This document shows positions 3,785-44,368 of a stretch of 64,000 bases of DNA, one piece after another. Each line of letters opens with the position of its first letter. The stretch's first letter is position 1. Position numbers and translations under genes: made by a program. Under the pieces are notes generated by a model. That model worked only from the letters and a program-made list of their open reading frames with translations, searched no databases and was not told the DNA's origin. The stretch is from Anaerolineaceae bacterium (GTDB lineage: Bacteria; Chloroflexota; Anaerolineae; Anaerolineales; Anaerolineaceae). The stretch spans positions 6,344 to 70,343 of the forward strand of contig JAXGXM010000008.1 of assembly GCA_040772785.1 (NCBI GenBank). The letters run 5' to 3'.

Positions 3785-5113
3785 CTACTTTCGCGTTTGA
3801 ACCTTCTCCATGTATTCTTTGATGGTTGGCATTCCTGCCAATCTCTCATAGAAGAAATTGTTGACGATATTGATCACCATTGCACGGGCTGCTTCTGCTT
3901 CAGCGGTGAACTGGTTGCGGGCTTCCGGCTGGGCGAGCGCGGTGCGTAAATTCAGCAGGTGTTTCACAATTTCGGTTTCTGCATCACCCTCAAGCGCGCG
4001 TATCACTTCCAGGATAAGATTATCTGTTGAAGCCACCATTTGCTCGTTTGTGATGGAGGATCCCGGGATATACGCATCATCGATTGTGCGGATTAGCGAC
4101 CAGATCTGGTAAAGGATGGTTGCCGGTTCATCGAACAGCTCGCGCAGGAACGCCGCCTCTTCGTATTTTCCGGTAAGGCGGAAGATGTTATACATGCGTT
4201 TGGCTACTTTGCCGTAGTTGACATCCTTGGTAAGGTACTTTAATACTTCGCGTTCGAGCGCACTGACGTAATCATCCAATGCATCAGAGGATACGTGCTG
4301 AGACAGCTTAGAGAAAATGGGAACTGATGAAATTTCCAGGTAGACCTCCTGGAAATAGGGATCAAGGAACCCATCCAGTGGTGTGATCTCACCGTCAGGA
4401 GCTTCCCACGTGGCGTCCAGCATGTTGCTGGCATTGGCGAGCTGTTTACGGACCGGATCCGCCACAACCCAATCGAGCTTGCACCAACCGGGATTGTACT
4501 TAACTTCATCCCAACTGACTTCGATCTTTTCACCTTCTTTAGTGAATCCATCGATCTTGCCTGCTTGTATTTCAGCAGGGTGCCAGGAGACGGGAGACCC
4601 GGCGCGAACCTCGCGATCACCGATCACGATGTCCCTGGGATGTTCTCCAAATTTCACTTCGATCAGCTGATAGTTTGGACCCTGTACGTATTTGAGGGCT
4701 TTTTCCCGCATAATGCTCCCCAGAATTTCGCAGGCTTCCTCTCTTGAAGGCGCGATAATATTGATACGTTCAAAGTAATCACAGTCACCGGGATAGGACT
4801 GTATCTTCGATTGGGCGGAGGAACCGGAAAGCGCCAGAGCGGTTTCAACTTTTCCCGGAACATCCTCAAATTCCACTATCTTACCGATGCGCTTGAAATA
4901 ATCCAGGTCTTTGTCGCTGAAGTCCAGCATGGTGATGTTGTGCCCGAACACACCAGAGCGGGTGTCCATGGAGATCTGGCTGCTACCCTTGTAAGCTGCC
5001 ATACTGGTGAGCCATTGCAGAGCCTCTTCTTCACCAACCTCGATACCAAGTCGTTTGGCTGACTCCATGATCCGGTTTAGATCCTCTTGCTTTGCTTCAC
5101 CCGTTTGTGTCAT
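3785..5113 (-). CDS. Hypothetical protein with Pol-beta-type nucleotidyltransferase-like motif and helical C-terminal domain
   Basis: LSGSS-x10-GDCDYFERINII (aa 95-120, nt ~4778-4825) fits hG[GS]-x9-13-DhDh. A downstream beta-strand acidic residue (QLIEVKFG or KLDWVVADP) could be the third carboxylate. The C-terminal ~150 aa is helical. No family was recognised with certainty. Confidence 0.35.
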   Translation of the reverse strand: MTQTGEAKQEDLNRIMESAKRLGIEVGEEEALQWLTSMAAYKGSSQISMDTRSGVFGHNITMLDFSDKDLDYFKRIGKIVEFEDVPGKVETALALSGSSAQSKIQSYPGDCDYFERINIIAPSREEACEILGSIMREKALKYVQGPNYQLIEVKFGEHPRDIVIGDREVRAGSPVSWHPAEIQAGKIDGFTKEGEKIEVSWDEVKYNPGWCKLDWVVADPVRKQLANASNMLDATWEAPDGEITPLDGFLDPYFQEVYLEISSVPIFSKLSQHVSSDALDDYVSALEREVLKYLTKDVNYGKVAKRMYNIFRLTGKYEEAAFLRELFDEPATILYQIWSLIRTIDDAYIPGSSITNEQMVASTDNLILEVIRALEGDAETEIVKHLLNLRTALAQPEARNQFTAEAEAARAMVINIVNNFFYERLAGMPTIKEYMEKVQTRK

Positions 5114-35648: not shown

Positions 35649-36655
35649 CCCAATCTCCCGGCTTCGTAATCGGCCTGAATGGGCGCGATGATGGTGCGAA
35701 TAGCATCCACATCCAACCACGCGTCGTTAGTATTCGAAGCGTATCGAAAACCGTCTTCCAACAGGCGCCCCTTGCTTTCCCAGTCGCGTCCAAACCACAG
35801 GGATTCTGCCGGCTGAACGACATACATATCCTCCAGCTCGATCGTCTGGCGGGCTTCATCATCAGAAATCAGCACCTCGTGAAGTTTTTCACCAGGGCGA
35901 ATGCCGATGTACTCGATCTTCGCATCCGGGGCGATTGCGCGTGCAAGATCTGTCACCGTCATACTGGGAATTTTTGGCACAAAGACCTCGCCGCCGTGCA
36001 TGTTCTCGACCGCCTGGATCACAAAACGCACACCCTGCTCGAGGCTGATCCAGAAACGCGTCATGCGCTCGTCGGTGATGGTCACTTTGCCGGAGGCGCG
36101 CTGTTTGAGGAACACCGGAACCACTGATCCGCGGCTGCCCACTACGTTGCCATAGCGCACGCAGGAGAAACGGGTGTTCTTCGCCCCGGCGTAAGCGTTG
36201 GATTGCACAAACAGTTTTTCAGCCGCAAGTTTGGTTGCGCCGTAAAGGTTGACCGGATTGACTGCCTTATCAGTGCTGAGTGCGACCACACGGCTCACTC
36301 CAGCGTCGATTGCGGCGTCGATGACATTACCGCTGCCGAGGATATTGGTCTTGATCGCTTCCATGGGGTTGTACTCGCAGGCCGGAACCTGCTTGAGCGC
36401 CGCGGCATGGATGACCACGTTGACACCTTCAAACGCCCGGCGGCAGCGCTGCTGATCGCGGATATCTCCGATGAAGTAGCGCAGGGAAGGGTGATTGAAC
36501 CCCGCTGCCTGCATTTCGTACTGCTTCAATTCATCCCGACTAAAGACGATCAATTTCTGCGGGTGATATTCCTTCAGCATGATGTCGATGAATTTTTTGC
36601 CAAAGGAGCCTGTTCCACCGGTTACAAGTACAACACTTTTTTTCCAATCGATCAT
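35645..36655 (-). CDS. pseB: UDP-N-acetylglucosamine 4,6-dehydratase (inverting), PseB/FlaA1-like
   Basis: Similarity to recalled H. pylori PseB runs along the whole length: LVTGGTGSFGK, FSRDELKQ, FIGDIRD, HAAALKQVP, YGATKL, RYGNVVGSRGSVVP, MTRFWI, MHGGEVFVPKIPS and IGIRPGEKLHEV. Confidence 0.8.
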   Translation of the reverse strand: MIDWKKSVVLVTGGTGSFGKKFIDIMLKEYHPQKLIVFSRDELKQYEMQAAGFNHPSLRYFIGDIRDQQRCRRAFEGVNVVIHAAALKQVPACEYNPMEAIKTNILGSGNVIDAAIDAGVSRVVALSTDKAVNPVNLYGATKLAAEKLFVQSNAYAGAKNTRFSCVRYGNVVGSRGSVVPVFLKQRASGKVTITDERMTRFWISLEQGVRFVIQAVENMHGGEVFVPKIPSMTVTDLARAIAPDAKIEYIGIRPGEKLHEVLISDDEARQTIELEDMYVVQPAESLWFGRDWESKGRLLEDGFRYASNTNDAWLDVDAIRTIIAPIQADYEAGRLG

Positions 36656-36766
36656 TTTATTTGCCTCTTTATGCGATGTCTGACTTTGCCAAAGATTTTC
36701 ATCAGCTCGTCACTGTGGAATTACTTTGTTCCTGTTTGTCCTCCCGGCAGGAAAAAATCCGGGAGA

Positions 36767-38371
36767 TTATTTCCCATAGTTGCTATCCATCATTCTCGTA
36801 AAGGTCATGGTGTCAAATGTTGCACGATATTTTTTCATTCCGCTCGCGGAGAGTACATTTTTCATGGGGTTGAGTTCGAGGTCGTCTTTCAACTGCCCCA
36901 TCTTCCATGGGTAGGGAAGCTGGAATCTGAAGAAAAACAAATAGGCGTATTTCCACGCGAGATTTACCCGCTCTGCGCTGAGCCGTTTCTCACGGGTGTT
37001 TTCGAGGAGTAGATTCAGTAATTTAAAGTATTCAACATAGGTGCCAGGATCATGAGTAAAACCGCGATTGCGATAGTGGGTCTTTCCCGCCACCACAACC
37101 GGAATACCCCTCAGCGCCATTTCCAGGCCGACGGTGGTCGTGTACACAAGACCAAGGTCAGCCACATCCATCAGGTCATACGTGTTGACCTCGTCCAGTG
37201 GTTCGATCAGCTTGATGTGAGGAGGCAGCTGGGGTAGTGTTTTACGGATCATGTCCAGGATGCTGCCGCGTTTCACCAGCGCTTCACCAGGGTGAATCCG
37301 GATTACCAGTTGAACTCCGGGGCGCTCAATGAAGTATTGAATGGTACGGATGATCCATTCGGTCATCGATTTTGTGAAGGTATTTCTGCCCAGGGTGAGG
37401 CTGTCTCCCAATACGTTTGTAGCGAGTAGAACAACCGGTTCATCAGTAAGGCCCAGTTTTTCCTTGATAATTGCCTGTCCTTCTGCCGGGATGCGCTGCC
37501 ATTTGCGGGTGTAATCGCCGTAAGTGGTCGCGTTGCTGCGGGAAGTAAGCAGCACGCGGGTTTCTTCAAGTTCAGAGCGGGAAAGTTTGTAATCAGCGTA
37601 CGCTTTCCACAACGTATCGGTATTCTGCTGCATGATCTCATCATTTTGCGCCAGCCACATTGACCCGCGTCTGTCACTGAACTCATAGGTGGAGGTTGGA
37701 ATCTTGAGGAAGCGGCACACCCGATAGGCAACGCCGAACTCAAGAATGGTGCCGTTGGGGATGATGGCGACATCCGGTTTATTCCTGCGAAGGTAGTGAT
37801 AAAGCGCTTTTGCTGCGTGCTGGTTGCGACGGTAGCGGAACTGGTAAAAGGGGTCTTCGCGATCGACTTCCTCGCTTTGGAAGTAGTACATGAAATCGTA
37901 ATCTGTCACCTGGTCCACTTCAGCGGAAAGTTTACTGGGAAGCTGTGCGAATGATGCGTTGTTGCGCAGAAAATTCTCAAATTGGATAAATTGGGCAGCT
38001 GTCTTCAGCACGGTATTGGCGTAAAAATTCTGCCGCCGGATGTCAAACTGGGTGGCATCGTCGCTCCAACGACCGTAAGGATAATATCCCACGCTGACAT
38101 CATGTCCCATTCCTGAAAGTGCGAGACCGGTCATCACCGTATGTTCTATCCAGTAATGAGTGGAGGCGAACAGGAAAACCTTTTTGCCGGCAGGGTGATC
38201 TTCGCGTGATTTTCCGACCACTGCTACCGATTCCGCCATAACTTCACGAATCGTCTTAAGTGAAAAATTGGATGGCAGCTGGTGGCTGTTTTGGCGTAAT
38301 AACCAGTACACCTCAGCTGTTAGGGGTAGTTCGCCTAGTACTTTCTTAACGGTTTCTTTTCTGCTCGCCAT
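36767..38371 (-). CDS. Capsule polysaccharide biosynthesis (KpsC/KpsS, Capsule_synth)-like protein
   Basis: IRIHPGE and VYTTTVGLEMALRGIPVVVAGKTHY. It is a paralog of 20699-22309. Confidence 0.5.
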   Translation of the reverse strand: MASRKETVKKVLGELPLTAEVYWLLRQNSHQLPSNFSLKTIREVMAESVAVVGKSREDHPAGKKVFLFASTHYWIEHTVMTGLALSGMGHDVSVGYYPYGRWSDDATQFDIRRQNFYANTVLKTAAQFIQFENFLRNNASFAQLPSKLSAEVDQVTDYDFMYYFQSEEVDREDPFYQFRYRRNQHAAKALYHYLRRNKPDVAIIPNGTILEFGVAYRVCRFLKIPTSTYEFSDRRGSMWLAQNDEIMQQNTDTLWKAYADYKLSRSELEETRVLLTSRSNATTYGDYTRKWQRIPAEGQAIIKEKLGLTDEPVVLLATNVLGDSLTLGRNTFTKSMTEWIIRTIQYFIERPGVQLVIRIHPGEALVKRGSILDMIRKTLPQLPPHIKLIEPLDEVNTYDLMDVADLGLVYTTTVGLEMALRGIPVVVAGKTHYRNRGFTHDPGTYVEYFKLLNLLLENTREKRLSAERVNLAWKYAYLFFFRFQLPYPWKMGQLKDDLELNPMKNVLSASGMKKYRATFDTMTFTRMMDSNYGK

Positions 38372-39634
38372 TTAGTGAACTTCCTCGATTCTCCAATCCA
38401 GCCTGGGGCGTATCGGACCATGCCTTACTTCCATCCATTGCATGCCTGGTGCCCCGGTGGGGTTGATGTTGAAATTGATCGCGCGTTCATCCGCGAAGTA
38501 TCTCTTTACCCGATACGAGCTCGCGTTGACGCCGACCACAAAGCGTCCTTCGTTCAGAGTGTCCTCCGGGATTGTGCAGCGGCTGACGTAACGACCCGCC
38601 TTGCGCACGCCGAGCGACTGGAATTTTTCAGCCTCGTCGGTGTCGAAGGATGTGAGAATGAAATCTCCCTGGGAGGTCATCAGGTAAACACCGACGCGCA
38701 GCCCTGTGATGTCGGCATCCAGCTGGTATTCCACCTCGATCGTTAATGGCTCCACTGAAAGCAGATTGTCGGTTGTGACGCCGGTTTTGTTCTTTACGCG
38801 CACCGCGATCGGTTTGAATGGATACGCGATCGAGGGAATCTCCTCAGCGTGGTATTTGCGCTCACCGCTGGCGGAGAGGTCGTTAGTCAGGTAGTAATCC
38901 ACCGCTTCAGCGGTAGGGGCGCGCAAGATCATACTGCCTTTGTCGAGGATGATACATTCGTGCGTGAGACGCTGGATGGCTGACATATTGTGGCTGACGA
39001 AAATGACGGTGCGACCTTCAGAAGCGACGTCGCTCATTTTTCCCAGGCATTTGCGCTGAAACTCCGCATCGCCGACTGCCAGTACTTCATCCACTACCAG
39101 GATCTCCGGCTCAAGGTGCGCGGAGACGGCAAATGCCAGGCGCATATACATACCGCTTGAGTAACGTTTTACCGGGGTGTCAATGAATTTTTCGATCTCC
39201 GAAAAAGCCACGATCTCATCGAATTTTTGCTCGATCTCCCCTTTTTTCATACCCAGCACAGCGCCGTTCAGGAAGATGTTCTCGCGCCCGGTCAATTCGG
39301 GGTGGAACCCGGTGCCAACTTCCAAAAGTGAACCGACCCGTCCGTGGATCTCTGCCATACCTTCGGTAGGTTCGACCACGCGTGAAAGGATCTTGAGTAG
39401 GGTGCTTTTGCCAGCGCCGTTCTTACCGATGACACCCAGAACCTGGCCGTGGTCGAGCTCGAAATTGACATGGCGCAGCGCCCAGAACTTCTCACTGCCG
39501 GTGGGGTTGATGAGAGTTTTTATCGGGCTCTTCACCACCTCCACGATCTTCTCGCGCAGGGTCATGTACTGGTTTTCTTTGAAGATGTTGTATTCTTTGC
39601 CGATGTTATCGACGCGAACAGCGAGGTTACTCAT
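38372..39634 (-). CDS. Polysaccharide ABC exporter ATP-binding protein (Wzt/TagH-type) with C-terminal glycan-binding beta-sandwich domain
   Basis: Walker A GKNGAGKST, signature YSSGM and Walker B ILVVDE. About 170 aa follow the NBD. The real start is MSNLAVRV at 39634, after GAGGAAAAAA; the 544-aa track ORF is an upstream extension. Confidence 0.85.
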   Translation of the reverse strand: MSNLAVRVDNIGKEYNIFKENQYMTLREKIVEVVKSPIKTLINPTGSEKFWALRHVNFELDHGQVLGVIGKNGAGKSTLLKILSRVVEPTEGMAEIHGRVGSLLEVGTGFHPELTGRENIFLNGAVLGMKKGEIEQKFDEIVAFSEIEKFIDTPVKRYSSGMYMRLAFAVSAHLEPEILVVDEVLAVGDAEFQRKCLGKMSDVASEGRTVIFVSHNMSAIQRLTHECIILDKGSMILRAPTAEAVDYYLTNDLSASGERKYHAEEIPSIAYPFKPIAVRVKNKTGVTTDNLLSVEPLTIEVEYQLDADITGLRVGVYLMTSQGDFILTSFDTDEAEKFQSLGVRKAGRYVSRCTIPEDTLNEGRFVVGVNASSYRVKRYFADERAINFNINPTGAPGMQWMEVRHGPIRPRLDWRIEEVH

Positions 39635-39645
39635 GCTTTTTTCCT

Positions 39646-40500
39646 CTAAATCATATCGGCGAACTGTTTTTCCATACGCCGGAAGTAGAACATACCTGTG
39701 ATAAGGATAACAATGGCGATGACCACCGAGAGGAGGATCATCAGAACCGAACCGGAACGGGCTGTGCCCAGCAGAGCGTAGCGGAATCCTTCCACCACCC
39801 CTGTCATGGGGTTCAGGAAGTAGATCAAACGCCACTTTTCTGGGATCATGGTTGATGAATAAACGACCGGGGTCAGGTACATCCACAGGTTGCTGATAAA
39901 CGGCATGATGTACCCTACGTCGCGGTAGCGCACCATTAACGCCGAGGTCCAAAAACCGACCCCAAGCGCGGTGACCAGCGCCAGCAGGATCAACAGCGGC
40001 AGCCATAAGGTGGCGAGAGTTGGAGTGACCTTGTAATAGATCATCATGCCGATGAGGATGATGAACCCAATGAAGAAGTCCACCACGCTCGACATCACCG
40101 ATGCCAACGGCACGATCATGCGCGGGAAATAGATCTTTGACACCATGTTGCTATTGGCGACCATCGACCGGCTGGCGACGCTCAATGCCGCGGCAAAGAG
40201 TTCCCATGGCAGCGTGGCTGTGTAGGAGAAAATGGGATACGGGACGCCATCCGAGGGGATCTTGGCAAAATTGCCGAAGAAAATAGTGAAAACGACCATT
40301 GCCATAAATGGCTTCAGTATCGCCCACAGGATACCCAAAACGGACTGTTTGTAGCGTACTTTTATGTCGCGCCACGTGAGGAAGTAGATCAGCTCGCGGT
40401 ATGCCCACAAATCGCGCAGGCGCAGCCCCACCCAGCCTTTGGAAGGCTTGATGAGTACCACGTTGGGCTTCTTTTTCTGGTCAAGTGTACTGGTTGTCAT
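39646..40500 (-). CDS. ABC-2 type polysaccharide exporter permease (Wzm/TagG-type)
   Basis: Six TM segments and an N-terminal YRELIYFLTWRDIKVRYKQSVLGILWA signature. The likely start is MTTSTL at 40500. Confidence 0.8.
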   Translation of the reverse strand: MTTSTLDQKKKPNVVLIKPSKGWVGLRLRDLWAYRELIYFLTWRDIKVRYKQSVLGILWAILKPFMAMVVFTIFFGNFAKIPSDGVPYPIFSYTATLPWELFAAALSVASRSMVANSNMVSKIYFPRMIVPLASVMSSVVDFFIGFIILIGMMIYYKVTPTLATLWLPLLILLALVTALGVGFWTSALMVRYRDVGYIMPFISNLWMYLTPVVYSSTMIPEKWRLIYFLNPMTGVVEGFRYALLGTARSGSVLMILLSVVIAIVILITGMFYFRRMEKQFADMI

Positions 40501-40502
40501 AA

Positions 40503-41940
<1,438 letters not shown>

Positions 41941-41951
41941 CTAACTCCAAT

Positions 41952-41966
41952 ATTCAATTGTTGAAT
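41952..41966. promoter_or_regulatory. Inverted repeat ATTCAA-TTG-TTGAAT immediately upstream of the regulator RBS (candidate operator)
   Basis: The repeat is seen directly in the sequence, 12-26 nt upstream of the ATG at 41940. Confidence 0.25.
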
Positions 41967-42011
41967 TATAAATCAGGGGCTTATTTGGGTCAAGGGTCGA
42001 ATGTTTAATTG

Positions 42012-42608
42012 AATAATGATATAATTTGCATCGTCACTGGGGCCCGTAGCTTCGAAGATCCCTGTGGGACAAGTGGTTAGAGCGCAAATAGAATTAGGAA
42101 TAATTAATGTTGCCTGCAGGAATTTCCTTTGCAGGTTTACTTTTTAATAATGATATAATTTGCATCGTCACTGGGGCCCGTAGCTTCGAAGATCCCCTGT
42201 AGGGACAAGTGGTTAGAGCGCAAATAGAATTAGGAATAATTAATGTTGCCTGCAGGAATTTCCTTTGCAGGTTTACTTTTTAATAATGATATAATTTGCA
42301 TCGTCACTGGGGCCCGTAGCTTCGAAGATCCCCTGTAGGGACAAGTGGTTAGAGCGCAAATAGAATTAGGAATAATTAATGTTGCCTGCAGGAATTTCCT
42401 TTGCAGGTTTACTTTTTAATAATGATATAATTTGCATCGTCACTGGGGCCCGTAGCTTCGAAGATCCCCTGTAGGGACAAGTGGTTAGAGCGCAAATAGA
42501 ATTAGGAATAATTAATGTTGCCTGCAGGAATTTCCTTTGCAGGTTTACTTTTTAATAATGATATAATTTGCATCGTCACTGGGGCCCGTAGCTCAGTGGT
42601 TAGAGCGC
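42012..42608 (+). repeat. Tandem array: four full copies (134, 136, 136, 136 bp) plus a fifth partial copy of a promoter + interrupted tRNA 5'-half + hairpin unit, merging into the intact tRNA-Met
   Basis: Units start at 42012, 42146, 42282, 42418 and 42554. Copies 2-4 look identical by eye. Copy 1 differs by two indels (CCCTGTGGG vs CCCCTGTAGGG). Confidence 0.9.
42559..42567 (+). promoter_or_regulatory. Extended -10 promoter element TGATATAAT for tRNA-Met (also present in every repeat unit)
   Basis: The TGnTATAAT consensus lies 14 nt upstream of the tRNA 5' end. Copies are also at 42017, 42151, 42287 and 42423. Confidence 0.5.
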
Positions 42609-42654
42609 GCGGCTCATAACCGCTTGGTCGCAGGTTCGATCCCTGCCGGGCCCA
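42582..42654 (+). tRNA. tRNA with CAU anticodon (elongator Met, or Ile2 if lysidinylated); CCA not fully encoded
   Basis: Hand-folded cloverleaf. Acceptor GGGCCCG/CGGGCCC, D stem GCTC/GAGC, anticodon loop CTCATAA, T arm GCAGG-TTCGATC-CCTGC, discriminator A. It lacks the three G-C pairs of an initiator anticodon stem. Confidence 0.85.
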
Positions 42655-42693
42655 CCTGATTTATCCAATCTCCACCCTATACAACGACCCTTT

Positions 42694-44241
42694 ATGATGA
42701 AGCTCTCCTCTCTGAAACTGGATATCCTGCTCTCATTCGCTGCTTCCCTGCTGCTCAGCCTGGTGGTGGCAGCATTCCAACCTGCGCCCTTCTTCAGCGC
42801 GTGGTTCGGTGCGAACCTGCTGTTGTGGCTCAGTTTTTTCCTGCTGCTGCGAACCTGGCGATTCTTCGGCAGCGGAAAAGTGCTGGCAGCCCTGCTGCTG
42901 GTAACCTTTTTCACCCGGTTACTGCTGGGTGTGTTCCTCCACGCTGCACTGCCCTCGATCGGCTACGACAACGCTGCTGAGAACGCCGGGTACGTGTACT
43001 CCGATGCCTACCTGCGCGATACCCAGGCGCTTTTGCTTGCCCGCGGCGAGGAATCACTGTTCACGGCGTTTGGTGAAGAGAGCGTTGACCAGTACGGCGG
43101 GTTGATGTTCCTCTCCGCAGCGGTTTACCGCCACTTCAACCTGAACGACTCGCGTCCCCTGTTCATCACCATCCTGTCGGCGCTGACAATGACTGCCGGG
43201 CTGGCTTTCCTGTTCGATGCGCTACGTAAACGCTGGGGTGAAAAGGTGGCGCTGGCAGCCGGCTGGTTCTACGCGCTTTACCCGGAGGGTATCCTGCTGG
43301 GCAGCTCACAAATGCGTGAGCCTTTCCTGATCGGTTTGTTTGGCATCGCCTTCTGGGCACTAATCACCTGGCGCGAAAAACTGCGCTGGAAAGCGCTCAT
43401 CTTTACCATAACTGTGGCGCTTTCGATGATCATTTCCGCGCCTTTTGGGGCGATCCTGGCGGGTGCATTGCTCGCGTTCTGGCTGGTGGAGTGGCTAACC
43501 CATCAGCCGTCGCGCAATATTCGCCGCGCAGGATTGCTCGTGCTGGTTTTGGCAGGCGTCGCTGGTGCTTTCGCCGGCTGGCTGTGGCTGAAGCCGACAC
43601 TCTACTATGATGCCTATCTCACCCGTATCAGTTCCGGTAATATCACTGCACTGCTGGAAATCATGGGTGAAAAATGGCAGATGCCGTTCATCACGATTTA
43701 CGGCATTGTCCAGCCTTTCCTGCCGGGCGCTCTGACCGATCCCTCGCTGCCGTTCTGGCGCACAACCGCCATCATCCGCGCGCTGGGTTGGTGGTTCGTA
43801 CTGCCTTTTCTGCCTTACGGATTTTTCGCGTTATGGAAAGCGCGGCCGAAATCAGACCGCTGGGGGCTGCTGGTCATTGTTCTCGCCCTGTTCGGCTGGA
43901 TCCTGATTTCCTCGCTGCGCGCGGGTGGGGATCTGTGGGATAACCCGCGCTACCGCGCCCTTTTAATCCCATGGTTCGCGCTGTTGGTGGGTTGGTGCTG
44001 GCAGCGACTGCGCAGCGGTCACCTGGCATGGTTTCTGCGCTGGGTTGGCATGGTGCTTGTCTTTTTCGTGGTTTTCTTCATGTGGTATCTTTTCCGCTAC
44101 CAGGTCATCAAGGAATACATTGGTTTCTTTGACATGATCCGGGTTATTCTGGCGGGCTGGGCGGTGATCCTGCTGACCGGCATTTGGGACATATACAAAT
44201 ACATCAAGGGGAAGCACAGGAAGGTTCCAACGCAGGTTTAG
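42694..44241 (+). CDS. Polytopic membrane protein (515 aa), GT-C/O-antigen-polymerase-like
   Basis: At least 12 hydrophobic helices. No soluble domain or catalytic motif was recognised. Confidence 0.45.
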   Translation: MMKLSSLKLDILLSFAASLLLSLVVAAFQPAPFFSAWFGANLLLWLSFFLLLRTWRFFGSGKVLAALLLVTFFTRLLLGVFLHAALPSIGYDNAAENAGYVYSDAYLRDTQALLLARGEESLFTAFGEESVDQYGGLMFLSAAVYRHFNLNDSRPLFITILSALTMTAGLAFLFDALRKRWGEKVALAAGWFYALYPEGILLGSSQMREPFLIGLFGIAFWALITWREKLRWKALIFTITVALSMIISAPFGAILAGALLAFWLVEWLTHQPSRNIRRAGLLVLVLAGVAGAFAGWLWLKPTLYYDAYLTRISSGNITALLEIMGEKWQMPFITIYGIVQPFLPGALTDPSLPFWRTTAIIRALGWWFVLPFLPYGFFALWKARPKSDRWGLLVIVLALFGWILISSLRAGGDLWDNPRYRALLIPWFALLVGWCWQRLRSGHLAWFLRWVGMVLVFFVVFFMWYLFRYQVIKEYIGFFDMIRVILAGWAVILLTGIWDIYKYIKGKHRKVPTQV

Positions 44242-44292: not shown

Positions 44293-44368
44293 GCCGAGAT
44301 AGCTCAGTTGGTAGAGCACACGACTGAAAATTGTGGGGTCGCCAGTCCGATCCTGGCTCTCGGCACCA
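44293..44368 (+). tRNA. tRNA-Phe (GAA), CCA encoded
   Basis: GCCGAGA-TA-GCTC-AGTTGGTA-GAGC-A-CACGA-CTGAAAA-TTGTG-GGGTC-GCCAG-TCCGATC-CTGGC-TCTCGGC-A-CCA. Confidence 0.95.

What the first reader, a model, noticed from the sequence alone, without database searches (positions are those of the whole stretch)
42012..42660. Tandem array of promoter-bearing, interrupted tRNA 5'-halves ending in an intact tRNA-Met(CAU)
A 136-bp unit is repeated head to tail, starting at 42012, 42146, 42282 and 42418. A fifth copy at 42554 continues into a normal tRNA. Each unit has three parts:
- an extended -10 box TGATATAAT;
- 14 nt later, the first 12 nt of the tRNA (GGGCCCGTAGCT), then 24 nt (TCGAAGATCCCCTGTAGGGACAAG, itself hairpin-capable) where the real tRNA has CAG in its D-loop, then the tRNA sequence resumes (TGGTTAGAGCGC);
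- an unrelated AT-rich tail with the imperfect hairpin CCTGCA..TGCAGG followed by TTTACTTTTT.
Each unit therefore looks like a self-contained promoter / tRNA-like 5' fragment / terminator-like cassette. Copies 2-4 appear identical, which implies recent amplification or concerted evolution. The array sits exactly at the boundary of the 31 kb glycan island. I do not recognise this as any described element. It is not a CRISPR array, not an attachment-site duplication of a tRNA 3' end, and not a known REP/BIME-type repeat.
Basis: seen in the sequence. Interest (0 to 1): 0.8.

Follow-up and report, generated by a model that had tools for sequence, protein, structure and literature searches.

The report
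Tandem tRNA-derived small RNA cassettes
Four head-to-tail copies of a small promoter-to-terminator cassette, built from the front end of the neighbouring tRNA gene plus a conserved extra hairpin, belong to an uncatalogued family of tRNA-derived elements that sit upstream of two tRNA genes in Anaerolineae bacteria; what they do is not known.

Summary
Units of 134, 136, 136 and 136 bp run into an intact CAU-anticodon tRNA. Its closest E. coli match is the CAU tRNA annotated tRNA-Ile, so it is probably tRNA-Ile2, not Met.

It is not a one-off. The host is an Anaerolineaceae bacterium (Chloroflexota). Relatives carry 0, 1, 2 or 6-7 such units at the same locus. The same D-loop module (GCTT-CG-N-AGA-hairpin-C...GGTTAGAGC) also sits in 5' fragments upstream of tRNA-Val(CAC) in other contigs, one of them placed in Anaerolineae by GyrA.

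In 29 distinct units the hairpin stem is always fully Watson-Crick, with compensatory changes at two positions. Tails diverge but keep a terminator hairpin with compensatory changes. A profile built only from Val-linked units finds exactly the four window units (E 7e-9 to 1e-7).

Rfam 15 and ARAGORN do not recognise the units. The module is not an interspersed repeat.

Best reading: an uncatalogued family of tRNA-5'-domain-derived RNA elements, either autonomous small-RNA genes or pre-tRNA leader modules. Here the unit was amplified by unequal recombination. Molecular function is unknown; a protein-binding tRNA mimic is my guess. Expression is predicted, not shown, and copy number needs long reads. 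The "glycan island boundary" claim is not supported.

The parts
41452..41940 (-). Divergent winged-helix regulator gene (HTH_24/MarR-like), first gene of the polysaccharide export operon. This is context, not part of the element.
   Evidence: Pfam HTH_24, E 3.5e-14. The same gene lies upstream of the tRNA in L002, L003, L013, L016, L018, L019, L020, L101 and L109.
41965..41993 (-). Promoter-like site of the regulator gene (TTGACC-17-TATAAT), with the conserved palindrome ATTCAATTGTTGAAT next to it.
   Evidence: The palindrome is conserved in relatives.
42012..42145 (+). Unit 1 (134 bp). Contains the extended -10 TGATATAAT at 42017-42025, the tRNA-like 5' domain at 42040-42086 with hairpin TCCC-TGT-GGGA, the AT-rich tail, and the terminator hairpin at 42112-42136 followed by a T run.
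   Evidence: Profile hit at 42040-42086, E 5e-11 with the non-window profile and 1e-7 with the Val-only profile.
42146..42281 (+). Unit 2 (136 bp). 5' domain at 42174-42222, insert at 42186-42209, hairpin TCCC-CTGTA-GGGA at 42193-42205, terminator at 42248-42272.
42282..42417 (+). Unit 3, identical to unit 2. 5' domain at 42310-42358, insert at 42322-42345, terminator at 42384-42408.
42418..42553 (+). Unit 4, identical to unit 2. 5' domain at 42446-42494, insert at 42458-42481, terminator at 42520-42544.
42554..42581 (+). Fifth copy of the promoter (TGATATAAT) and 14-nt spacer. It drives the intact tRNA.
42582..42656 (+). Intact tRNA with anticodon CAU, probably tRNA-Ile2 (lysidine-type). CCA is not encoded.
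   Evidence: ARAGORN. Rfam tRNA 70.6 bits. The best E. coli match is the CAU tRNA annotated tRNA-Ile, 82-84% identity.
42694..44241 (+). GT39-like (PMT_2-type) membrane glycosyltransferase homologue. A syntenic neighbour used to find related loci; not part of the element.

Best explanation
**What it is.** The array is four tandem copies of a self-contained transcription unit: an extended -10 promoter, an RNA of about 105 nt, and an intrinsic terminator. The RNA is derived from the promoter and 5' domain of the adjacent tRNA-Ile2(CAU) gene.

**Family.** It is a member of an uncatalogued, lineage-restricted family of tRNA-5'-domain-derived elements, found so far only in Anaerolineaceae genomes and in metagenomic contigs, one of which GyrA places in Anaerolineae.

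**Conserved core.** The core runs from the tRNA acceptor 5' strand through the D arm. In it, the D-loop bases CAG(Y) are replaced by the module UUCG-N-AGA, then a 4-5 bp hairpin with a GNA/GNRA-like loop and a bulged A, then C-N(2-5).

**Two forms.**
- Upstream of tRNA-CAU the unit usually has its own promoter and terminator, so it would be a small RNA gene.
- Upstream of tRNA-Val(CAC) it lies inside the pre-tRNA leader behind a single promoter.

**How it most likely works (inferred).** The unit acts as RNA. The 5' domain folds into an extended hairpin. In the shortest units it folds into an acceptor-like stem plus D stem, about 12 bp in all, capped by the module.

The invariant single-stranded CG-N-AGA plus the bulged-A hairpin would be a protein-recognition site. 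The RNA would then be a partial tRNA mimic that titrates or recruits a tRNA-binding or tRNA-processing factor for its parent tRNA.

**Origin of the array (inferred).** The four near-identical copies arose by recent unequal recombination or slippage between repeats, which raises dosage.

**Shown here.** Existence, family membership, covariation, and structural conservation of the terminator.

**Inferred only.** Transcription, action at the RNA level, protein binding, and any effect on the tRNA.
For: **Repeat and anatomy.**

**Same locus in relatives.**
- One unit in L003, L013, L018 and L023.
- Two in L016, L097 and L105.
- At least two in L109.
- Six to seven diverged units in L010/L011/L104.
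- None in L019 and L020.

**Same module at a second tRNA.** It occurs in 5' fragments upstream of tRNA-Val(CAC) in L093-L111. One Val-type contig is Anaerolineae by GyrA: 85-86% identity to 'Chloroflexi bacterium' and 'Brevefilum sp.'.

**Hairpin covariation.** In 29 distinct units, 116 of 116 outer stem pairs are Watson-Crick. Stem position 4 is T-A 16 times and C-G 13 times. Position 2 is C-G 27 times and T-A twice. None of 10,000 shuffles reached this.

**Divergent tails, conserved terminator.** RNAalifold on six orthologous units finds 9 of 27 pairs with both sides changed, in the module hairpin, the terminator stem and a short tail helix.

**Sense-strand signal.** G-U pairs on the sense strand occur in a second hairpin of the L010 units.

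**Cross-tRNA homology.** A profile built only from Val-linked units of other organisms hits the four window units end to end (E 7e-9 to 1e-7). It hits the real tRNA only weakly (E 0.42).

**Folding of short units.** They fold as acceptor-like stem + D stem + hairpin + U run, z -2.2 and -2.4.

**Specificity.**
- 45 of 47 module occurrences in 0.98 Mb are in the tRNA-like context.
- 0 of 21 tRNA-Phe genes have upstream 5' duplicates, against 7 of 17 CAU and 7 of 9 Val genes.

**Truncation series.** Full-length decayed copy, then 5' half, then 5' third; the 5' domain is always kept.
Against: - No expression data of any kind are available. Promoters and terminators are consensus matches only.
- The window unit itself does not fold better than shuffles (z 0.08 and 0.38).
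- No single secondary structure outside the small hairpin fits all subfamilies. The 3' flank comes in three types (CTGCT, CAAGT, CGT) that pair differently with the invariant 5' flank.
- Units are absent from close relatives with the identical tRNA (L019, L020). Some units are visibly decaying (L002, the first unit of L016, one unit of L102). The element is therefore dispensable and turns over.
- The outer three hairpin pairs of the metagenome-derived units were partly fixed by my own search pattern. Only stem positions 4-5, and the synteny-derived loci, are unbiased.
- No candidate partner protein was identified.
Confidence: 0.5

Rival explanations
1. Neutral debris. The units are pseudogene remnants of tandem duplications of the tRNA gene. 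Their 5' parts are kept similar to the live gene by gene conversion and their 3' parts decay. The array is a by-product of unequal crossing-over, like the 178-bp repeats at E. coli tyrT/tyrV, and has no function.
For: - Presence/absence and copy number vary among close relatives.
- Some copies are decaying.
- The 5' acceptor strand usually matches the local tRNA.
- The E. coli tyrT/tyrV locus shows that tRNA-fragment-bearing tandem repeats arise in bacteria.
- The window unit shows no folding signal.
Against: - Gene conversion from the tRNA cannot maintain the insert, because the tRNA lacks it.
- Yet the insert is the best conserved part across lineages whose neighbouring protein is only 50-75% identical, and across two different tRNA loci.
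- The stem shows compensatory changes and no mismatches.
- Terminator hairpins are structurally conserved while their sequence changes.
Confidence: 0.2
2. A DNA-level element. The hairpin or inverted repeat, together with the invariant CG-N-AGATC, is a site for a DNA-binding protein or recombinase. The tandem units would then be scars or products of site-specific recombination at the 5' part of the tRNA gene, or a protein-binding array in the divergent promoter region.
For: - Both tRNAs concerned are used by integrase-bearing elements in these lineages: L097 has an integrase ORF 3' of tRNA-CAU, and L111 has a prophage integrase next to tRNA-Val.
- Formally the array equals tandem integration of a 136-bp circle at the promoter + 12-nt core.
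- The module contains GATC.
- GNA loops closed by C-G also make very stable DNA hairpins (from general knowledge).
Against: - Those integrases sit at the 3' end of the tRNA, whereas the units are on the 5' side.
- No recombinase gene lies within or beside the array.
- Arms of 4-5 bp with 3-5 nt spacers are too short for known tyrosine or serine recombinase core sites (from general knowledge).
- The conserved promoters and terminators, and the sense-strand G-U pairs, point to RNA.
Confidence: 0.12
3. A selfish mini-insertion. The 21-26 nt hairpin module would be a tiny mobile sequence that targets tRNA D loops, tolerated only in duplicated gene copies. Selection at the level of the element would preserve its hairpin.
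For: - The same module occurs in two different tRNA contexts.
- The distribution is patchy.
- Arrays are multi-copy.
Against: - The module is not found outside the tRNA-like context in 0.98 Mb of Anaerolineae DNA (45 of 47 occurrences are in context).
- There is no other copy in the 64 kb window.
- No transposase is associated.
- No live tRNA gene carries it.
Confidence: 0.08
4. An assembly artefact. The number of identical copies (or the array itself) is produced by mis-assembly of a repeat.
For: - Copies 2-4 are identical.
- Short-read contigs of relatives end inside or next to the array: L001, L014, L105, L109.
Against: - Independent assemblies from different samples contain multi-unit arrays whose units differ from one another: L097 and L016 with 2 units, L105 with 2 before its contig ends, and L010/L011/L104 with 6-7.
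- Copy 1 differs from copies 2-4.
- Only the exact count of four is at risk, not the existence of the array.
Confidence: 0.05

Closest known systems
E. coli tyrT/tyrV locus: 178-bp tandem repeats that include a tRNA fragment and yield the rtT (RttR) RNA and the tpr ORF
   Same: A tandem repeat directly abutting a tRNA gene, in which each unit contains a piece of that tRNA. It is transcribed with the tRNA operon and gives a small RNA by-product. [quoted passage not shown]
   Different: The E. coli repeat lies downstream, carries the 3' end of the tRNA, and has no promoter of its own. It has no inserted conserved hairpin module, and there is no sequence or Rfam relationship to the units here.
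NsiR1 arrays of heterocystous cyanobacteria (tandem copies of a 60-nt sRNA gene, each with its own promoter)
   Same: The architecture: a tandem array of self-contained promoter-sRNA(-terminator) cassettes, with copy number varying between genomes. Anabaena has 12 copies, each bearing its own promoter (PMC4030482).
   Different: NsiR1 is not tRNA-derived, is not tied to a tRNA gene, and has a HetR/DIF-dependent promoter. There is no sequence or structure similarity, and no Rfam hit for the units.
tRNA att-site duplications left by integrases (genomic islands, prophages)
   Same: Direct repeats of part of a tRNA gene next to the intact gene. The same tRNAs are used as integration sites in sister strains.
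   Different: Those repeats are 3' segments, separated by kilobases of element DNA that includes an integrase. Here the repeats are 5' segments carrying the promoter, spaced 136 bp apart, with a conserved insert and no integrase.
Bacterial tRNA-like RNAs and tRNA mimics (tmRNA tRNA-like domain, YrlA/Y-RNA tRNA-like module, thrS operator)
   Same: Part of a tRNA fold is reused in a non-decoding RNA. The short units can form an acceptor-like stem stacked on a D stem.
   Different: Those mimics reproduce the acceptor/T-arm or the anticodon arm. Here only the acceptor 5' strand and the D arm are kept, and there is no T arm. None of these Rfam families match. This comparison rests on general knowledge.
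Type III toxin-antitoxin RNA repeats (ToxI)
   Same: Tandem repeats of a short structured RNA.
   Different: ToxI units are about 36 nt, share one promoter, and precede a ToxN-type endoribonuclease gene. Here the downstream genes are a tRNA and a GT39-like membrane protein.

Membership tests
Canonical tRNA gene (Rfam RF00005) | Cloverleaf detected by a tRNA covariance model or ARAGORN | tested here: not met
   The units are not called by ARAGORN. They are not called by Rfam either, even at E<=10. Only 42582-42656 is a tRNA.
tRNA-Ile2 (CAU, lysidine-type), for the intact gene | CAU anticodon, with a body more similar to tRNA-Ile2 than to elongator or initiator tRNA-Met | tested here: met
   The best E. 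coli match over all 73 nt (82-84%) is the CAT-anticodon gene that RefSeq annotates as tRNA-Ile. Modification by TilS is not testable here.
tyrT-type tRNA-linked tandem repeat / rtT RNA | The tandem repeat unit contains a fragment of the adjacent tRNA | tested here: met
   Each unit has tRNA positions 1-12 and 12 nt of the D arm. The E. coli comparator was verified.
tyrT-type tRNA-linked tandem repeat / rtT RNA | Repeat lies 3' of the tRNA, carries its 3' end, and is homologous to rtT | tested here: not met
   The units lie 5' of the tRNA and carry the 5' end and the promoter. No Rfam rtT hit.
Tandem sRNA gene array (NsiR1-like architecture) | Each repeat has its own promoter and terminator | tested here: met
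   TGATATAAT and a terminator-like hairpin plus T run occur in every unit. Both are kept in orthologous units of relatives. These are sequence predictions only.
Tandem sRNA gene array (NsiR1-like architecture) | Unit-length transcripts are made | not testable with these tools
   No transcriptome data are accessible.
Integrase att-site duplication | Repeat of the tRNA 3' segment flanking an element that encodes an integrase | tested here: not met
   The repeated segment is the 5' one, spacing is 136 bp, and no integrase lies in 36-48 kb of the window. Integrases in sister loci lie 3' of the tRNA.
CRISPR array | Short identical repeats separated by unique spacers | tested here: not met
   Whole 136-bp units are identical, including what would be the spacers. 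No CRISPR repeat family hit.
REP/BIME or MITE-type interspersed repeat | Many dispersed copies in intergenic regions | tested here: not met
   No other copy in the window. 45 of 47 module occurrences in 0.98 Mb of related loci are in the tRNA-like context. Whole genomes were not scanned.
Proposed new family: Anaerolineae tRNA-5'-domain elements with a D-loop hairpin module | GCTT-CG-N-AGA-[4-5 bp hairpin]-C-N(2-5)-GGTTAGAGC, preceded by a tRNA acceptor 5' strand, and located upstream of an intact tRNA-CAU or tRNA-Val(CAC) | tested here: met
   All four window units fit. Profiles built without any window sequence hit them end to end, E 2e-13 to 5e-11 with all non-window units and 7e-9 to 1e-7 with Val-linked units only.

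The most novel reading that the evidence does not exclude
The units would encode a new class of bacterial tRNA mimic: a 'front-half' tRNA (acceptor strand plus D arm) whose D loop is replaced by a protein-binding, bulged-A hairpin module. It is made either as an autonomous small RNA or as a pre-tRNA leader. It would control maturation, modification or aminoacylation of its parent tRNA, for example by titrating RNase P, or by titrating a factor shared by tRNA-Ile2(CAU) and tRNA-Val(CAC), the substrates of the paralogous enzymes IleRS and ValRS. Copy-number changes in the array would then act as a fast evolutionary dial on that control.
Probability: 0.15. Interest if true: 0.8.

Novelty: new variant of a known kind. 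Interest (0 to 1): 0.6.

Why it matters
Bacterial small RNA genes that are visibly derived from a tRNA gene, still carry its promoter, and stay physically tied to it are very rare.

This one comes with comparative support:
- one strongly and one weakly covarying stem position in the hairpin;
- structurally conserved terminators;
- two parent tRNAs;
- several genera.

It lies in a poorly studied phylum that dominates anaerobic digesters and sediments.

If the RNA is made and binds a tRNA-handling factor, it would be a new way of regulating individual tRNAs. It would also be a clean example of a tRNA gene giving birth to a regulatory RNA, with tandem amplification as a dosage mechanism.

If it turns out to be neutral, it is still a useful warning: these arrays break short-read assemblies at tRNA loci, and CAU tRNAs get mislabelled as Met.

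Tried and rejected
- **Rfam.** Scans of the window region and of a Val-type locus at E<=10 and E<=5 gave nothing but the true tRNAs and noise.
- **Folding the window unit alone.** No better than shuffles. The structural argument therefore rests on comparison, not on energy.
- **GyrA synteny.** I tried to collect more tRNA-Val loci through GyrA neighbours. Three look-ups gave seven loci with no tRNA and no module.
- **IMG/VR scan.** One hit, which is host DNA beside a prophage integrase.
- **Literature.** Searches for partial or tandem tRNA repeats, D-loop insertions and Anaerolineae tRNA introns found no description of this element. Bösl & Kersten 1991 is not held in the library.
- **Insert as a copy of the tRNA's own T loop / 3' end.** TTCGA..TCCCTG..GGG resembles the window tRNA, but the resemblance does not hold in L003 or in the Val type. 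Rejected.
- **K-turn.** The GA/AG positions do not fit.
- **True T-loop mimic.** The base at the A58-equivalent position is variable.
- **Integron attC.** GTTAGAG lacks the Y of GTTRRRY, and there is no inverse core site.
- **Archaeal-type BHB intron.** The host is a bacterium.
- **31-codon ORF.** It runs from the tail across the promoter into the insert, but it is not conserved in relatives.
- **Link to the divergent wHTH regulator.** Val-type loci have unrelated neighbours.
- **MAFFT alignment A3.** It put the 3' arm of the hairpin out of register. I therefore counted pairs on an anchored parse rather than with the pair-count tool, and I did not build a covariance model.
Full report
**1. The observation**

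The sequence at 42012-42660 is as described. Tandem Repeats Finder reports one array at 42012-42593, period 136, 4.3 copies, 99% matches.

Aligning the copies shows that units 2-4 are identical. Unit 1 lacks two single bases in the loop of the small hairpin, giving TCCC-TGT-GGGA instead of TCCC-CTGTA-GGGA, so it is 134 bp.

Each unit contains, in order:
- the extended -10 box TGATATAAT;
- a 14-nt spacer;
- GGGCCCGTAGCT, which is tRNA positions 1-12;
- a 24-nt insert where the tRNA has CAG;
- TGGTTAGAGCGC;
- a 60-nt AT-rich tail that ends in a terminator-like hairpin and a T run. The scan finds this hairpin in all four units (5 sites against 1.3 expected).

The insert and the tail hairpin occur nowhere else in the window, with zero matches expected by chance. 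ARAGORN and Rfam see only the intact tRNA at 42582-42656 and tRNA-Phe at 44293. Neither recognises the units, even at E<=10.

**2. Two corrections**

*The tRNA.* Compared with all complete E. coli genomes, its best full-length match (82-84% identity) is the CAT-anticodon gene that RefSeq annotates as tRNA-Ile. It is therefore most likely the lysidine-dependent tRNA-Ile2, not tRNA-Met.

*The island boundary.* The array is not at a boundary of a foreign island.
- GC content is flat across the region.
- The genes on one side are a winged-helix regulator, an epimerase, Wzm/Wzt-type ABC transporter genes and capsule genes.
- The gene on the other side is a GT39-like membrane glycosyltransferase homologue.
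- The same gene order is found in relatives, with or without units.

**3. Host and relatives**

Homologues of the GT39-like neighbour are named Anaerolineaceae or Anaerolinea. I fetched the syntenic locus from relatives through that protein. The intact tRNA is identical or nearly identical across them. The region upstream of it varies as follows.

| Locus | Units upstream of tRNA-CAU |
|---|---|
| L019, L020 | none; regulator promoter, then tRNA promoter, then tRNA |
| L003, L013, L018/L096, L023, L101 | one |
| L002 | one decayed unit |
| L016, L105 | two differing units (L105's contig ends in the second) |
| L097 (99% identical to the window's upstream flank) | two differing units |
| L109 | at least two |
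| L010/L011/L104 | six to seven units, period about 125, differing from each other |

Several short-read contigs stop inside or right next to the array: L001, L014, L105 and L109. Published copy numbers are therefore lower bounds, and the count of four here needs long-read confirmation.

**4. A second tRNA**

I scanned the metagenome collection with a pattern for the insert plus the D-arm 3' part. It returned 18 contigs. Besides CAU-type units, many carry the same module in 5' fragments upstream of a different tRNA, tRNA-Val(CAC).

In the Val type the unit usually lies in the pre-tRNA leader, behind a single TTTGCTATAATG promoter. Arrangements seen:
- one copy in L093, L095, L098, L103;
- two tandem 72-bp copies in L100;
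- mixed with longer, decayed tRNA-Val-like copies in L102 and L110.

One such contig (L103) carries GyrA that is 85-86% identical to proteins named 'Chloroflexi bacterium' and 'Brevefilum sp.'. The named CAU-type genomes are Anaerolineaceae, and this one Val-type contig is also Anaerolineae; the other metagenomic contigs were not placed.

The acceptor 5' strand of a unit usually copies its own downstream tRNA. There are exceptions: L018 has a Val-like GCGCG strand upstream of tRNA-CAU, and the strands in L010 and L016 have diverged.

As a control, none of the 21 tRNA-Phe genes in the same loci has an upstream 5' duplicate. By contrast, 7 of 17 CAU genes and 7 of 9 Val genes do.

**5. What is conserved**

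I parsed 29 distinct units. The invariant core is GCTT-CG-N-AGA-[hairpin]-C-N(2-5)-GGTTAGAGC.

*The hairpin stem.*
- It takes five forms: TCCT/AGGA, TCCC/GGGA, TCCCC/GGGGA, TCCTC/GAGGA and TTCCC/GGGAA.
- All 116 outer pairs are Watson-Crick.
- Stem position 4 is T-A in 16 units and C-G in 13. Position 2 is C-G in 27 and T-A in 2.
- None of 10,000 shuffles of the 3' arms reaches this level of pairing.

*Caveat.* My metagenome pattern fixed the outer three pairs for L093-L111. The unbiased evidence is therefore position 4-5 everywhere, plus position 2 in the synteny-derived loci L013 and L105.

*Other features.*
- Loops are GNA triloops or GNRA-like tetraloops.
- An A is always bulged between a closing G-C pair and the stem.
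- The 3' flank falls into three types, CTGCT, CAAGT (the window's type) and CGT. Each pairs differently with the invariant 5' flank.
- The conservation of CG-N-AGA is therefore not explained by pairing. It looks like a recognition sequence.

*Orthologous units from the window, L003, L013, L105 and L018.*
- The promoter and 5' domain are conserved.
- The tail is divergent.
- The terminator hairpin keeps its pairing through changes on both sides.
- RNAalifold finds 9 of 27 pairs with both sides changed.
- Its consensus for the 5' domain is an extended hairpin: UAGCU/GGUUA, C-G, G-C, then the module stem.

*The shortest units (L101, L109).* The D arm is followed directly by ACGGG and a U run. ACGGG pairs with CCCGU of the acceptor strand. 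This gives an acceptor-like stem stacked on the D stem, capped by the module (z -2.2 and -2.4).

*L010 units.* A second hairpin keeps its pairing through G-U pairs on the sense strand only. That points to RNA rather than DNA.

**6. Formal test of family membership**

A profile HMM built from all non-window units hits the four window 5' domains end to end (E 2e-13 for units 2-4, 5e-11 for unit 1).

A profile built only from tRNA-Val-linked units of other organisms still hits exactly those four (E 7e-9 to 1e-7). It gives the real tRNA only a partial hit at E 0.42.

The module is not an interspersed repeat. In 0.98 Mb of related loci it occurs 47 times, 45 of them next to GGTTAGAG.

**7. Interpretation**

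Three observations together argue for selection on the 5' domain rather than neutral decay:
- The insert cannot be maintained by gene conversion from the tRNA, which lacks it. Yet it is the best conserved part of the unit.
- This holds across lineages whose neighbouring protein is only 50-75% identical, and across two tRNA loci.
- The copies form a truncation series (full-length decayed copy, then 5' half, then 5' third) that always keeps the 5' domain.

The retained -10 boxes and the structurally conserved terminators make transcription likely.

I therefore read the units as members of an uncatalogued family of tRNA-5'-domain-derived RNA elements. The CAU type would be autonomous small-RNA genes, and the Val type would be leader modules.

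The window array would be a recent amplification by unequal recombination between 136-bp repeats. Supporting this, copies 2-4 are identical, and the sister strain has two units that also differ in sequence.

The molecular function is not shown. My best guess is a partial tRNA mimic whose bulged-A hairpin plus CG-N-AGA binds a tRNA-handling protein.

Against a strong functional claim:
- there are no expression data;
- the window unit has no folding signal of its own;
- no single structure fits all subfamilies;
- close relatives lack units, and some units are decaying.

**8. Rivals**

- *Neutral pseudogene debris.* Disfavoured by the conservation and covariation of the insert.
- *A DNA-level recombination or binding site.* Integrases do use these tRNAs in sister strains. 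But they sit at the 3' end, no recombinase is near the array, and the arms are very short.
- *A selfish mini-insertion.* Disfavoured because the module never occurs outside the tRNA-like context.
- *Mis-assembly.* Independent assemblies contain arrays of differing units, so only the exact copy number is at risk.

**9. Comparison with known systems**

| Known system | Relationship |
|---|---|
| E. coli tyrT/tyrV 178-bp repeat x 3.1, overlapping the tyrV 3' end, with rttR and tpr | Nearest DNA-level analogue, verified here. But it is downstream, carries a 3' fragment, has no promoter of its own and is unrelated in sequence |
| Cyanobacterial NsiR1 array of sRNA genes, each with its own promoter | Nearest architectural analogue, but not tRNA-derived |
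| Rfam 15 families | None matches |
| Literature | Searches found no description |

I rate the finding as a new variant of a known kind (tRNA-linked tandem repeats / tandem sRNA arrays), containing what looks like a new RNA motif.

**10. Verdict**

The island-boundary claim is wrong, and the tRNA-Met label is probably wrong.

Interest is 0.6. The finding is a real, comparatively supported and uncatalogued element with unknown function. It is directly testable with metatranscriptomes, long reads and simple biochemistry.

Noticed in passing
window 41949-41993 (- strand promoter of the regulator gene 41452-41940): The palindrome ATTCAATTGTTGAAT lies beside the TTGACC-17-TATAAT promoter of the winged-helix regulator gene. 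It is conserved in L003, L013, L016, L018, L019, L020, L101 and L109. It is probably the regulator's own operator.
   Followed up: partly
L097:63-953 (sister strain, 99% identical to window 36231-42321): A tyrosine-recombinase-like ORF (HxxR...Y motif) lies directly 3' of the same tRNA-CAU, where the window has the GT39-like gene. A mobile element appears to be integrated at the tRNA 3' end in that strain.
   Followed up: partly
L111:1-700 (IMG/VR contig IMGVR_UViG_3300002821_000110): A prophage-type integrase N-terminal region lies next to the 3' end of tRNA-Val(CAC). Two insert-bearing 5' units lie on the other (host) side of the tRNA.
   Followed up: no
L110:4160-4320 and 4394-4500; L102:10540-10700 (-); also L094, L106, L108: tRNA-Val-like copies carry a second insert of 26-100 nt right after the anticodon stem. 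In L102, L106 and both L110 copies it ends in TTCGCG before AAGGT (GTGCTTCGCG in L102 and L110); the 3' end was not seen in L094 and L108. Both L110 copies contain a CCCCC...GGGGG hairpin (loop TTCG in the first). In L108 it looks inverted relative to L102. Unexplained.
   Followed up: no
L002:2640-2720: A 16-bp tandem repeat, GAATGTTTGTCGTGTT x about 4, lies immediately upstream of the decayed unit in the 87%-related strain.
   Followed up: no
window 42066-42094 and the same offset in units 2-4: There is an internal promoter-like match, GGGACA-17-TAGAAT, inside each unit (9 of 12 positions). It is probably chance.
   Followed up: no
window 42101-42196 and the same offset in later units: A 31-codon ORF (MLPAGISFAGLLFNNDIICIVTGARSFEDPL), with AGGA 7 nt upstream, runs from the tail across the next promoter into the insert. 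It is not conserved in relatives, so it is probably not coding.
   Followed up: partly
L001:1, L014:1-12, and the ends of L105 and L109: Short-read contigs of related genomes repeatedly break at or inside this array. tRNA-CAU loci with units are therefore likely under-assembled in public MAGs.
   Followed up: partly
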